From Octopus vulgaris (Eukaryota), in assembly GCA_951406725.2 (NCBI GenBank), contig OX597815.1:157666001-157730000 (forward strand): a DNA stretch of 64,000 bases. Reading direction: 5' to 3'. The notes beneath the pieces were generated by a model. It worked only from the letters and a program-made list of their open reading frames with translations, was not told the origin of the DNA and did not search any database. Positions 30,780 through 36,774 of this stretch are shown here, one piece after another. The first letter of the stretch is position 1; each line of letters opens with the position of its first letter. The position numbers and the translations under genes were made by a program.

Positions 30780-32092
30780 TAAGGTGTATCAAAATCGGAA
30801 TGTAGAAGTAATTAATGCCTTACAGCTGTTTCTGGAATATCCCAGATGATGGGTCAACATCTCCGTATTCTGGATATTCCGTCATCAGAGACAAGGTGTG
30901 TATGCAGGTAAGTTCCAGACATAAAGACAGAAGAATAAAGTTCACAGTTCCTTTTGTTCCAAAGAGTATGGAGTCCGTACTTCCGTGAAGGTATAGCCCC
31001 TTAAGTATAATTCCAGGTAAATCCGGGTAGTATTTTGAATGTTGCATTCAGATTGAAAGAATAAATCAAGTGGTTAGCTTGTAAGAAAAATGGTTTTGGT
31101 AAAGTGGAGAAGGAAGGTATTTATGGCTATTAGAAGGTAATTAAATAGATAGATGAAATCTAGGTTCAGTGTAGTCAGAAATAATATTTAACTTGAGTTC
31201 AGTGGCCGGTAGAGGGAGCTAAGGTGCTAGAAATAGATGACTAACTTAAGGAGAGAGAATATATTTAAAATTAAAAGTTAAAAATTAACAATTAAAAAGA
31301 TTATTGCGGCAAGCGAACTTCGAAGATACTATGCTGATGCAATAAGTATTAATAGATGATGAAAATACGTAAGTATATTGTTATGACTGTAAATGTAGAC
31401 AGGCAAGTGTCATGCGTGTTGATTTTGCTTGCATTTGGACCTGTGGGAGAACCTAAAGGTACCATAGAACTTCTGTTTGCATGAAGAGAATGCTTCATGT
31501 TGTCTATTAAGTAATTGTGGTGAATCATGAATTAATATTTGGAGGGCTTCCTTAAGGTAGAGTCCACGTGCAGAGCGCTTGCCTTGGTATGGGACACCAA
31601 AATCTATTATGGCCCAGGTTATCTTATATCAGATAGTGTATGTGGTTGATTAGGGACGTTGATTAGGGACGTTGTTCCTCATATCTAAATGAGTTCAGAT
31701 GTGCAGAATATCTCTGCTTAAAATTAATTGTAGATCCGATGTAGTGGCTAGTAGAATTGTGCAGTGTGCTGTGGACAATGCATTTATACACAGCATTAAA
31801 TCTTCTGCAATAGGGTTGCGGTGGGCATTCGGTCCCAGAGCTGCAGTTGCAGCTGTATCTATCTGTCCTATGTGGGTTAGCTGTGGATAGCAATGATGCT
31901 GTATTATTTATGGACAAGTTAAAGTCTAAGCTAGTGTCGGGGGTTGGCTCTTATTATTATTATTATTATTACTTTTTTTTTTCTTCTTTCAAATTTGCTT
32001 CCATTTCTTGCCGAGTGTCTTCCCGACTCCTAGGGCAAAGAAACTCATAGTATACATTGGTAGGCCATTAAACCAAACTCAATAGTTCGTTC

Positions 32093-32160
<68 letters not shown>

Positions 32161-32995
32161 GTGGTGGTGGTGGTAGTAGTAGAAGTTGTAGTAGTAGTAG
32201 TAGTAGTAGGAGGAGGAGGAGCAGCAGCAGCAGTAGTAACACTATTAGTATTAACATTCATTTCAGCCGTACTTCGACATACTCGGAAGTGAGGATATCC
32301 GCATTCTGGTTTATGCTGGTTATAGTGCTAAGGTTATAGATTCTATATTGAGCGGAGAGGAGTAGGATAATTTCAGAGATCTGTCGAAGATCGAATGGTA
32401 TTTATGGTGACGTGGGAAGTTAGAGCTTGCAATTGTAAAAAAAAAATGGTTTTGGCTAAGCCCTTAACGTTTAAAGCGAATGGGGGTGTAAACCAGAGAA
32501 TTGATCTTCTCCCAGTTTTATTAGGCAATATAGGAGTAGTATAATCTATATTTTTTGCTAGAGGAGAACCCCGGGAGTCAGCCTTGTTTATCAGTTTGAG
32601 TATTGTTCGAGTGTTATACGGGTGAACGGGGGGGGGAGCGCGGGGATTTTTGTGGGAGGGTTTGTGTGTCCAGTGGTGGGGCATAACCCTCAAAGATTGA
32701 GCTGGTGGATGTGTTTTTTTAAGCCTAGTGTTTACAATGAATTTAATTTGCTGGGAGAAGCCGCTAGCCGCTAGTGCCTGGTTATAGTATATAGCGTAGC
32801 TTTGGGGATAATTCCTCCGTAGTTGAGAGATCCAATATTCGGATAGATATGCCTTTGATTACACTATCGAAGGTAGATTTACGATGATTCGTGTTTATAC
32901 TAATGTATCTGAGGTATTGATTAGGTTTATGGTAAGGGGAGTACAGCGAAGATTTTAAATCTTAAGTAACATCTAGAAAATTAACTGTATGTACA
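30780..32995 (-). mobile_element. 5'-truncated Penelope-like retroelement (RT thumb, linker, GIY-YIG endonuclease, 3' terminus)
   Basis: Minus strand: VNFLDVT..YSPYHKPNQYLRYISINTNH (~32990-32880), RRSILWFTPPFALNV (ORF 32373-32693) and CNCSSGTECP..C..AVYKC..HYIGSTINFKQRYSAHLNSF (31663-31917). Interrupted by microsatellites at ~31950-32260. Confidence 0.88.
30816..30893 (-). ncRNA. Type-I minimal hammerhead ribozyme in the 3' end of the PLE
   Basis: Minus strand: tgtct-CTGATGA-cggaatatccaga..tctgggatattcca-GAAAC-agct-GTA-aggca. Canonical core, long stem II, palindromic stem III loop. Confidence 0.8.
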
Positions 32996-34264: not shown

Positions 34265-34992
34265 TTAAAGAAGTACCGCCCCACGTCATTATCCACTAAC
34301 TACTGTCTAACACTGGAAGCATGTGGCCCGAAAAAACCGTTTAAGTGACACGCCTAAATGAAAGATTACATTAGATGTTTTACTGGTGCAGTCCCTTGAT
34401 GATGAGCCATGTCCCATGTGACCGCTTCTCGAAAACGTTTGCACATCCCTTATGTCCTTCTCTCTCTCTCTCTCTCTTTTCTTTTTTGACAGTTGAGTTC
34501 GATTTCAGAGAGATTTGGTGGATCTTGTTAAAGTTCTTCCAACCATTTGAAGAATTTCATCAGATCCTTTTCACATTTTCTACGCTGGTGTGTAGTTTTG
34601 TTAGCTGATGACAGAAATCACATTAATGTTTTTTTTTCTAGAAATTAATTATCCTTTCTATTTAAGGCACAATGCCCGAAATTGGGGAGGGGAATAGTCG
34701 ATTACATCGATCCCAGTGTTTTACTAGTATTTAGTTTATCGACCCCAAGAGAATGAAAGGAGCTCGGCGGAATTTGAACTCAGAACGTAAAGACGGACGA
34801 AATGCCGCTAAGCATTTTGTTCTGTGTGCTAAAGATTTTGCCAGATTATCGTCTTTTCCTAAAAACTAATAATAAGAAATTACGGAGATGTACTAGCATA
34901 GCAAGTGACCTGATCTGAGATCGTGTGCTGGAACGAAAACAAAAGGTGTTTATAAGCCATTTAAGCAACACACAAAAAAAGATGCAGCACAG

Positions 34993-35048
34993 AATTTTGT
35001 CAGTGAACAGGTTACGGTCTCAAAGCGACGAAAATATTTTGACAAATT
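34993..35048 (+). ncRNA. Candidate hammerhead ribozyme with swapped G3:C8 core, inside a 36-bp inverted repeat
   Basis: tttgtca-GTGAACA-g-gttac-ggtctcaaa-gcgac-GAAA-atattt-tgacaaa; flanked by IR arms 34943-34978 / 35078-35113. Confidence 0.55.
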
Positions 35049-36591
35049 AAATTTAAATGTTGAAGTGAATCTAAAGGTTTTTGCGTGTTTCTTAAATGGC
35101 TTATAAACACCTTCCACGCTGCAATAATAAAAAAAGTTTTAAGCATTTAAAAAAATTATGTAGCTTTAATCAATTGGAAGCCTACATTGCTAAAATGACT
35201 GATTTTCGTCATCAGCATGCATAACTACATAAAAAAAAAATAAATAAATGCACCCTTTTTAAAGCCTAGCCAGGCTCATGGTCTCGGTTTCTATGGCGTA
35301 TGTTTTCCCCAGATAGATTAGTCCATCGCAGCCCTACTAATTTTTGCCAGCTGAGTGGACTGGAGCAACGTGAAATGAAGTGTTTTGCTCAAGTACACAA
35401 CGCGTCGCCCGGTCCAGGAATCGAAACCACAATCTTACAATCATGATGCTGACACCCCTAACCACTAAGCCACGTGCCTCCACGCATAACTACATCAGTG
35501 TAGAAAATTTTAGAAGAATTTTCTCAATCCTGTGACAATCTGAAATGCTTCAAGTAGTTGGAAGTAATTTAATATGATCCGATTTTACCGCTTTTTCCTA
35601 TCAGGTCGAACGACAATTGTAGAGGCTCCGTCATTAAGTTAAGAACGGAAAGAAGTATGAGTGGAAAAAGTCAGGAAGGAAAGAAATATTAAAGAGAGAG
35701 AGAGAGAGAGGGAGAGTGAACAGAGAGGGAGGAAGCGTGAAAATATTTGCACACAATATGATCTGAAGATAAAATAAGAATGTTGAAAGCAAATATAAAA
35801 CAAATGAAACGAGAATGTACATATGTACCAGTTGTGTATATAATGTAAAGATACGTACGCACACACACACATAAATAGCACATACTCATATGTGTGAGTG
35901 TGTGTTGAGTATGTTTGAAAGTTCTAAGACTACATCGGGGCCAGCTGCAGCATTTTATAGCCAACTTAGTAATTATGTGTCTGAAAAGATACATCATTAC
36001 TCGTGTCAATGCACGGTCGCACACTTGTTTTGATTCAGAGACTGCAGTCCTTCCTGGGCCAGTGTATACTTATTTCTTTATTATTACCCACAAGGGGCTA
36101 AACATAGAGGGGACAAACAAGGACAGACGTAGGTATTAAGTCGATTACATCGACCCCAGTGCGTAACTGGTACTTAATTTATCGACCTCGAAAGGATGAA
36201 AGGCAAAGTCGACCTCGGCGGAATTTGAACTCACAACGTAACGGCTGACGAAATACCGCTAAGCATTTCGCCCGGCGCGCTAACGTTTCTGCCAGCTCCC
36301 CGCCTTACTGTCTGCATGTCATTCAGCTTCGTGCGCTGGTAGCGCAGGGCTTGAAATTTCCTGAAAGAGTGAGGAAGGAGAGAGAAGAAGGAGAGAGAGA
36401 GAGAGGGAGAGAGAGAGAGAGAGGGAGAGAGAGAGAGAGGGAGGAATAGATAAAGAGAGAGCGGGTGGAGGAATGTGTGCCACTTAATTAGATATGTTCG
36501 TGTATTTCGTATATATGTGTACATAAGCGTCTTTAATTTTTGGTTTCTGCCGTTCTTAATTACTTTTTCAGTTTTTCCAGTGTCTTCTAAA

Positions 36592-36774
36592 ATGAGTTCC
36601 AAAAAAATTATGATCAATGCTGACCCAGGTATCGACGATGCTCAGGCTATCTTCATGGCTGTAGCACGACCCGATATTGAAATTATTTCGCTCCATATTC
36701 ACCATGGCAATACAACTCGACCTAATGCAATGAAGAATGCTTTGAGGATACTTCAGGCGTGTAACAGCCTAAAA
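36592..36774 (+). CDS. Inosine/uridine-preferring nucleoside hydrolase, coding exon 1
   Basis: MSSKKIMINADPGIDDAQAIFMA...HGNTT...KNALRIL, the NH family N-terminal DxDxxxDD-type motif; gtaagt donor. Confidence 0.93.

What the first reader, a model, noticed from the sequence alone, without database searches (positions are those of the whole stretch)
34943..35113. Natural G3:C8-swapped hammerhead candidate inside an inverted repeat
The core reads GUGAACA instead of CUGANGA. Both changes are transversions and they exactly swap the C3-G8 Watson-Crick tertiary pair known from the full-length hammerhead structure, which is unlikely from random decay. Stem I (tttgtca/tgacaaa) is perfect, stem II is imperfect (gttac/gcgac), loop III is palindromic (aaatattt) and the site is UUU. 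It lies on the sense strand of the presumed first intron of the nucleoside hydrolase.
Basis: partly seen in the sequence, partly recalled or inferred. Interest (0 to 1): 0.8.

Follow-up and report, generated by a model that had tools for sequence, protein, structure and literature searches.

The report
Swapped-core hammerhead in Penelope retrotransposon
This is a decayed copy of a jumping gene whose thousands of copies carry a self-cutting-RNA (hammerhead) motif with one core base pair flipped from C-G to G-C, a flip I found described only as a laboratory mutant; intact elements likely still cut slowly, but cutting has not been shown and this intron copy is probably dead.

Summary
The motif is real: GUGAACA at 35003, 7-bp stem I, GAAA, palindromic stem III, UUU site. 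It is not a lone host ribozyme. It is a ~245-nt insertion of a Penelope-like retrotransposon (PLE; RT plus C-terminal GIY-YIG, Neptune/Nematis-type linker), and the inverted repeat is the usual inverted 5'-truncated PLE copy. G3:C8 is the family state: 6,820 of 7,580 genome matches, both 1.1-kb pLTRs of a full-length element, and four other organisms' runs show no reversion to C3. The family's stem II is perfect; the window copy has two CpG-type decays. Related PLE families in the same genome align without gaps outside loop II and carry C3:G8 or mostly U3·G8, with compensatory stem changes. So this is natural covariation of the 3:8 tertiary pair. I found natural U3:A8 in print but not G3:C8 (0 of 56 published PLE examples; two key papers unreadable). 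Activity is untested: no cleavage footprint in copies or reads, and unpaired G3·G8 RNAs were also copied. A new variant of a known kind.

The parts
34868..34879 (+). left copy of the probable target-site duplication (11 of 12 letters match 35123-35134; AT-rich, so weak)
   Evidence: similar flank duplications visible by eye in other copies
34980..35125 (+). forward copy of the short 5' unit of the element: likely RNA start (AGATGCAGC) + hammerhead + first codons of the ORF, ending at the shorter 3' end
34996..35002 (+). hammerhead stem I, 5' strand (pairs with 35040-35046)
35003..35009 (+). core G3-U-G-A-A-C8-A9 (swapped 3:8 pair)
35010..35010 (+). extra unpaired G between A9 and G10.1, shared by families A, B and C
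35011..35029 (+). stem-loop II; this copy has GTTAC where the family has GTCGC (two CpG-type decays)
35030..35039 (+). G12-A13-A14-A15.1, palindromic AATATT (stem III only in a dimer), U16.1, U17; predicted cut between 35039 and 35040
   Evidence: numbering by comparison with PMC4209133
35096..35125 (+). start of the PLE RT-endonuclease ORF (MAYKHLPRCN), which runs on into the full ORF in long copies
   Evidence: L309, L327
33665..36580 (+). presumed host intron (5' UTR) of the nucleoside hydrolase gene that holds the insertion; start codon at 36592
   Evidence: splice signals; Pfam PF01156; not confirmed by reads

Best explanation
The locus is a short, decayed insertion of a Penelope-like retrotransposon whose pLTR carries a minimal type-I hammerhead motif with a family-wide G3:C8 pair in place of C3:G8, which likely still folds into a slow, dimer- or protein-assisted ribozyme in full-length elements. 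Shown: the full element is pLTR(~1.1 kb)-ORF-pLTR with the motif in both pLTRs, about 57 nt ahead of the ORF start codon; related families carry C3:G8 or mostly U3·G8. Inferred: transcription starts at the A of TCAGATG, 23 nt before the core (extra 5' G on short copies = copied cap); reverse transcription starts inside the ORF start at two sites about 60 nt apart, so uncut RNA gives the thousands of short and inverted copies. Cutting would remove the capped 5' 60 nt, so a weak ribozyme would be tolerated or favoured. The window copy is a lone, stem-II-damaged passenger in a host intron and probably does not cut.
For: Copy counts: 7,580 matches with positions 3 and 8 free, 6,820 G3:C8, 35 changed at both; 301 exact 52-nt motifs with perfect stem II. 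PLE link: GIY-YIG above the Pfam cut-off about 950 nt upstream of the motif; CX3CxxC linker; 14 RT-EN-like relatives at 42-54%; L327 has two 98.4%-identical 1,118-nt pLTRs 4,261 nt apart, each G3:C8, around the ORF, plus an inverted copy; the tail runs into the ORF. Covariation: 36 natural copies of three families pair 3:8 in 35 (GC 13, CG 11, UG 10, UA 1), with G-C/A-U in stem II and A-U/G-C in stem I (related sequences, so three families, not 36 events). Loop II was replaced in the ORF-linked subfamily while core and stems stayed; stem I A-to-G keeps a U·G wobble in 29 of 78 arms. 20 of 33 short copies have a G before +1 where the genomic template has C. PMC11167929 (passages and section 3 part 2 read): in a PLE hammerhead C3G and G8C each abolish cutting, the double mutant partly restores it, cutting needs the PLE protein, and uncut RNA is the insertion substrate.
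Against: No direct sign of cutting: 1 of 96 arms begins at the cut site, and no read begin/end pile-up in one RNA run, 6% read. G3·G8, which should be dead, occurs in 234 copies against 63 for U3·C8 and in both arms of 6 of 40 loci fetched, so RNAs with a broken pair were copied. The core is not much better kept than the rest after insertion (5.2% vs 7.4% at non-CpG sites), as expected of neutral copies but uninformative on activity. The extra base is G, whereas the published consensus has H (one G case among 56). Families A and B are only about 40% identical in protein, and no intermediate family dates the swap.
Confidence: 0.68

Rival explanations
1. Vestigial ribozyme: the motif descends from a PLE hammerhead but no longer cuts. 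The 3:8 swap was fixed in a master element by drift, or because the fold or DNA sequence serves another job (promoter, protein binding).
For: No cleavage footprint; G3·G8 RNAs were retrotransposed on several subfamily backgrounds; cleavage is dispensable for PLE insertion in vitro (PMC11167929).
Against: All other core letters match the canonical core across three families while loop II turns over. Two transversions ended exactly in a Watson-Crick pair that is known to rescue activity.
Confidence: 0.26
2. Host-exapted intronic ribozyme that cuts or regulates the nucleoside hydrolase pre-mRNA.
For: Sense orientation within the presumed first intron; the inverted arms close a stable hairpin around the motif (z -7.4).
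Against: One of thousands of copies, either orientation equally common; stem II damaged (-6.5 vs -14.3 kcal/mol for an intact copy); no second copy in 64 kb for a dimer.
Confidence: 0.04
3. A MITE or other inverted-repeat DNA element with a chance hammerhead look-alike.
For: 36-nt terminal inverted arms.
Against: Arm length varies copy to copy and many copies have none; two discrete 3' ends; linkage to an RT/GIY-YIG ORF.
Confidence: 0.01

Closest known systems
Minimal type-I hammerheads of metazoan Penelope-like elements (Cervera and de la Pena 2014, PMC4209133; main text parts 1-2 of 4 and supplement 2 parts 1-2 of 3 read)
   Same: In both pLTRs; unpaired base between A9 and G10.1; G10.1-C11.1; palindromic stem III; U17 common; solo and opposite-strand copies; U3:A8 and U3·G8 occur naturally.
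   Different: G3:C8 is in 0 of the 56 representatives (53 C3:G8, 2 U3:A8, 1 U3·G8); the CUGANGA descriptor would miss it; extra base G instead of H.
C3G/G8C laboratory double mutant (PMC11167929 for the anole Poseidon hammerhead; review PMC8495972, one passage; Martick and Scott 2006 and Przybilski and Hammann 2007 only as cited there)
   Same: Same swapped pair; partial rescue of activity.
   Different: Here it is natural and fixed in a high-copy family; activity not measured.
Natural U3-A8 core covariation (Perreault et al. 2011, PMC3088659, section 8 read)
   Same: Covariation of the same tertiary pair.
   Different: U3-A8 needs two transitions and can pass through a U·G wobble; G3:C8 needs two transversions through a mismatch (inference).
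EN+ PLEs of the Neptune/Nematis type (PMC8557442, passages read)
   Same: RT then CX2-5CxxC linker then C-terminal GIY-YIG; partial tandems, inverted 5'-truncated copy, tail, (TA)n targets.
   Different: Tail about 60 nt rather than 30-40; clade not placed by a tree.

Membership tests
PLE minimal type-I hammerhead | core CUGANGA with a 3:8 pair | tested here: not met
   Literal CUGANGA is absent (GUGAACA); the 3:8 Watson-Crick pair is kept as G:C and covaries across families.
PLE minimal type-I hammerhead | GAAA, A15.1-U16.1 and NUH site | tested here: met
   35030-35039; U17 in 75 of 77 arms.
PLE minimal type-I hammerhead | stems I and II, G10.1-C11.1, extra base after A9 | tested here: met
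   Family stems perfect, compensatory changes between families; stem II damaged in the window copy.
PLE minimal type-I hammerhead | short palindromic stem III | tested here: met
   AATATT; the cofold minimum-energy dimers did not show the stem III duplex, so dimer folding is not supported by computation.
PLE minimal type-I hammerhead | located in both pLTRs of a PLE | tested here: met
   L327.
PLE minimal type-I hammerhead | site-specific self-cleavage | not testable with these tools
   Indirect footprints negative.
EN+ Penelope-like element (Neptune/Nematis type) | one ORF with RT and C-terminal GIY-YIG, CX2-5CxxC linker | tested here: met
   PF01541 25.6 bits; CQSNCAVC linker; YVDD-containing RT region; weak RVT_1 match only in relative P0002.
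EN+ Penelope-like element (Neptune/Nematis type) | pLTR tandem, inverted 5'-truncated copy, tail from two RT starts | tested here: met
   3' ends cluster at reference 149-155 (35 of 96) and 210-211 (46 of 96).
EN+ Penelope-like element (Neptune/Nematis type) | placement in a named clade by RT phylogeny | not tested
   No named reference proteins at hand.
non-LTR retrozyme | tandem arrays of short non-coding monomers | tested here: not met
   Copies are solo or inverted pairs of a PLE end; one small cluster seen at L319/L320.

The most novel reading that the evidence does not exclude
A natural, active G3:C8 hammerhead: a retrotransposon lineage crossed a two-transversion valley and settled on a throttled ribozyme (G3:C8 with U17, which avoids a G3-C17 mispair) that lets most of its RNA survive to be copied. 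Swapped cores like this are invisible to CUGANGA searches, so some 'hammerhead-less' PLEs may carry them.
Probability: 0.35. Interest if true: 0.72.

Novelty: new variant of a known kind. Interest (0 to 1): 0.5.

Why it matters
It gives phylogenetic support for the hammerhead 3:8 tertiary pair in an orientation I found reported only as an engineered mutant, with three states (C:G, U·G, G:C) in related families of one genome. It exposes a blind spot of CUGANGA descriptors. It also offers a ready natural series to test the open question of whether PLE hammerheads need to cut at all, or are tuned to cut little.

Tried and rejected
Rfam scan: no hammerhead hit. Canonical subfamily inside family A: rejected; of 35 double changes 3 were C3:G8, one being family B and two isolated A copies. 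G3·G8 as a single fossil intermediate: rejected; the 35 arms scored scatter over the tree and are as old as G3:C8 arms (4.4% vs 4.1%, P 0.51), though enriched in one intermediate subfamily (site 95 G in 9 of 35 vs 0 of 39). U17 as a change specific to the swap: weakened, since family C also has U17 (14 of 18) and U17 is common in published PLE motifs. Spliced 5' exon as the cause of the fixed 5' end: not favoured, because letters upstream of the extra G are not shared; a branch-point/acceptor-like signal does lie there. Cleavage footprint: none; no RNA holder was listed. Literature searches for a natural G3:C8 and for cephalopod PLE hammerheads found none; Lunse et al. 2017 (about 150,000 PLE variants, number recalled) and Przybilski and Hammann 2007 are not held and could hold a prior report. 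Supplement file 1 of PMC4209133 could not be searched.

Full report
Observation. The 36-nt inverted arms are real. A relaxed descriptor finds only this site in the window, and 0 of 40 random sequences give a hit with a 7-bp stem I. Rfam does not detect it.

A high-copy family. G000 is a 2.8-Gb animal genome; its repeats look cephalopod-like to me (recalled, not tested). The 171-nt query had 2,011 first-look candidates, 40 scored. An 18-nt pattern with positions 3 and 8 free matches 7,580 places (control 5); 6,820 are G3:C8; 35 differ at both. To avoid anchoring on the core I took 96 arms found by a 20-mer downstream of the motif (90 fetched loci covering most of the first 100 of 5,702 matches), dropped 15 near-identical clones, and found G3:C8 in 60 of the 67 arms that span the core, 7 single changes and no double. 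Stem II in the family is GTCGC/GCGAC; the window's GTTAC is two CpG-type decays. So the swap belongs to the source element, not to this copy.

What the family is. Most copies start about 23 nt before the core and end at one of two sites about 60 nt apart. A minority (430 exact matches) continue upstream through a ~950-nt UTR to the end of an ORF with a CX3CxxC linker and GIY-YIG domain, related at 42-54% to 14 unnamed long proteins. Downstream, the 'tail' is the start of the same ORF. L327 is a complete unit: two 1,118-nt pLTRs, 98.4% identical, each with the G3:C8 motif, around an ORF matching P0003 end to end with frame breaks, plus an inverted 5'-truncated copy. This is the arrangement described for EN+ PLEs, and the linker points to Neptune/Nematis (PMC8557442 passages). 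The window insertion (34880-35125) is the miniature version: inverted arm with tail, forward arm without, and a probable 12-nt target duplication.

Covariation. A double-change hit led to family B (canonical CTGAAGA; 734 matches to a B-type pattern), also a GIY-YIG PLE at about 40% protein identity, and to an older family C with U3 in 14 and G8 in 16 of 17 scored cores. The three share the extra G, the stem II ends and a similar ORF-start peptide, and align without gaps outside loop II. On 36 chosen copies the 3:8 pair holds in 35; stem II pair 10.4 goes G-C to A-U and stem I pair 2.1 A-U to G-C. B copies were selected by a canonical-core pattern, and these are three lineages, not independent events. 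Within A, the ORF-linked subfamily replaced loop II and kept core and stems. C3:G8 is the state in 53 of 56 published PLE motifs, so G3:C8 is taken as derived (inference). Laying three contig sets and one RNA run from four other coded organisms on an A copy showed the family in all, variation concentrated in loop II, and no G3-to-C3 change at 5% or more by the per-kind tallies; only 40 of 85 rows were shown, and one G>C row in the RNA run is unseen.

How it likely works. 20 of 33 short copies that start at AGATGCAGC have a G before it where the genomic template has C, and the letters further up are not shared; I read this as a copied cap at an initiator-like start (inference; the cap-G signature is recalled). 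The motif then lies in the 5' UTR, and a cut at +60 would decap the mRNA and, in the 3' pLTR, separate the body from the reverse-transcription start sites. Copies retain the whole motif, and only 1 of 96 arms starts at the cut site, so uncut RNA is what gets inserted, as in the anole element (PMC11167929). That paper also shows C3G/G8C partly rescues a PLE hammerhead and that cutting needs the protein. PMC3884650 (two passages) says a G3-C8 variant is more active with G17 than with C17 (data not shown there); A has U17, but so does C. I therefore favour a slow, assisted ribozyme (0.68) over a dead relic (0.26).

Against. G3·G8 occurs 234 times against 63 for U3·C8; the listed matches are unevenly spread over contigs, so part of the excess may be local duplication. 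In 6 of 40 loci both arms carry it and in 4 the arms differ. These arms are polyphyletic and not older. A broken pair therefore does not stop short RNAs being copied. RNA reads cover the family on both strands with no end pile-up. Computed dimers did not form the stem III duplex.

The host gene. The insertion lies between a good donor (33665) and acceptor (36580) upstream of the nucleoside hydrolase start codon. It is alone in the window, damaged, and one of thousands, so a host function is unlikely.

Novelty. Natural U3-A8 is published (PMC3088659 section 8; PMC4209133). Searches found G3-C8 only as an engineered variant, but two key papers were not readable. Two unchecked notes from this scan describe G3-C8 candidates beside PLE RT genes in other genomes; they are leads only. 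Verdict: new variant of a known kind, interest 0.5.

Noticed in passing
window about 30820-32860, minus strand: Remnant of a different PLE (GIY-YIG-like frame at 31663-31950) ending in a canonical CUGAUGA hammerhead with a very long stem II and ACAGCUGU palindrome.
   Followed up: partly
L231-L250 (family C): Old PLE family whose hammerhead is mostly U3·G8 with U17 (14 of 17 U3).
   Followed up: partly
L287, L299, L300, L301, L252: The two arms of one inverted insertion differ at subfamily-diagnostic sites (L301: different loop II and position 8), suggesting two RNA templates per insertion.
   Followed up: no
L198:1509 and window 34980: The sequence just upstream of the start in long copies also reads as a branch point plus acceptor (CTAAC...TTTCTCAG); an intron as in Drosophila Penelope is not excluded.
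   Followed up: partly
window 34520-35580: Nested inverted repeats (34520-34620 with 35200-35580) suggest an older MITE-like element into which SINE-like repeats and this PLE piece inserted.
   Followed up: no
L116, L119, L133 and others on contig C1: 15 arms share one identical inverted junction, so one insertion was re-amplified, probably inside another repeat.
   Followed up: no
L198:1451, run X22: About 11% of RNA reads in organism C have A17 instead of U17; may come from one expressed locus.
   Followed up: no
L065, L106, L119, L130: Other canonical hammerhead-like motifs in flanking repeats, so this genome holds many PLE-type hammerhead families.
   Followed up: no
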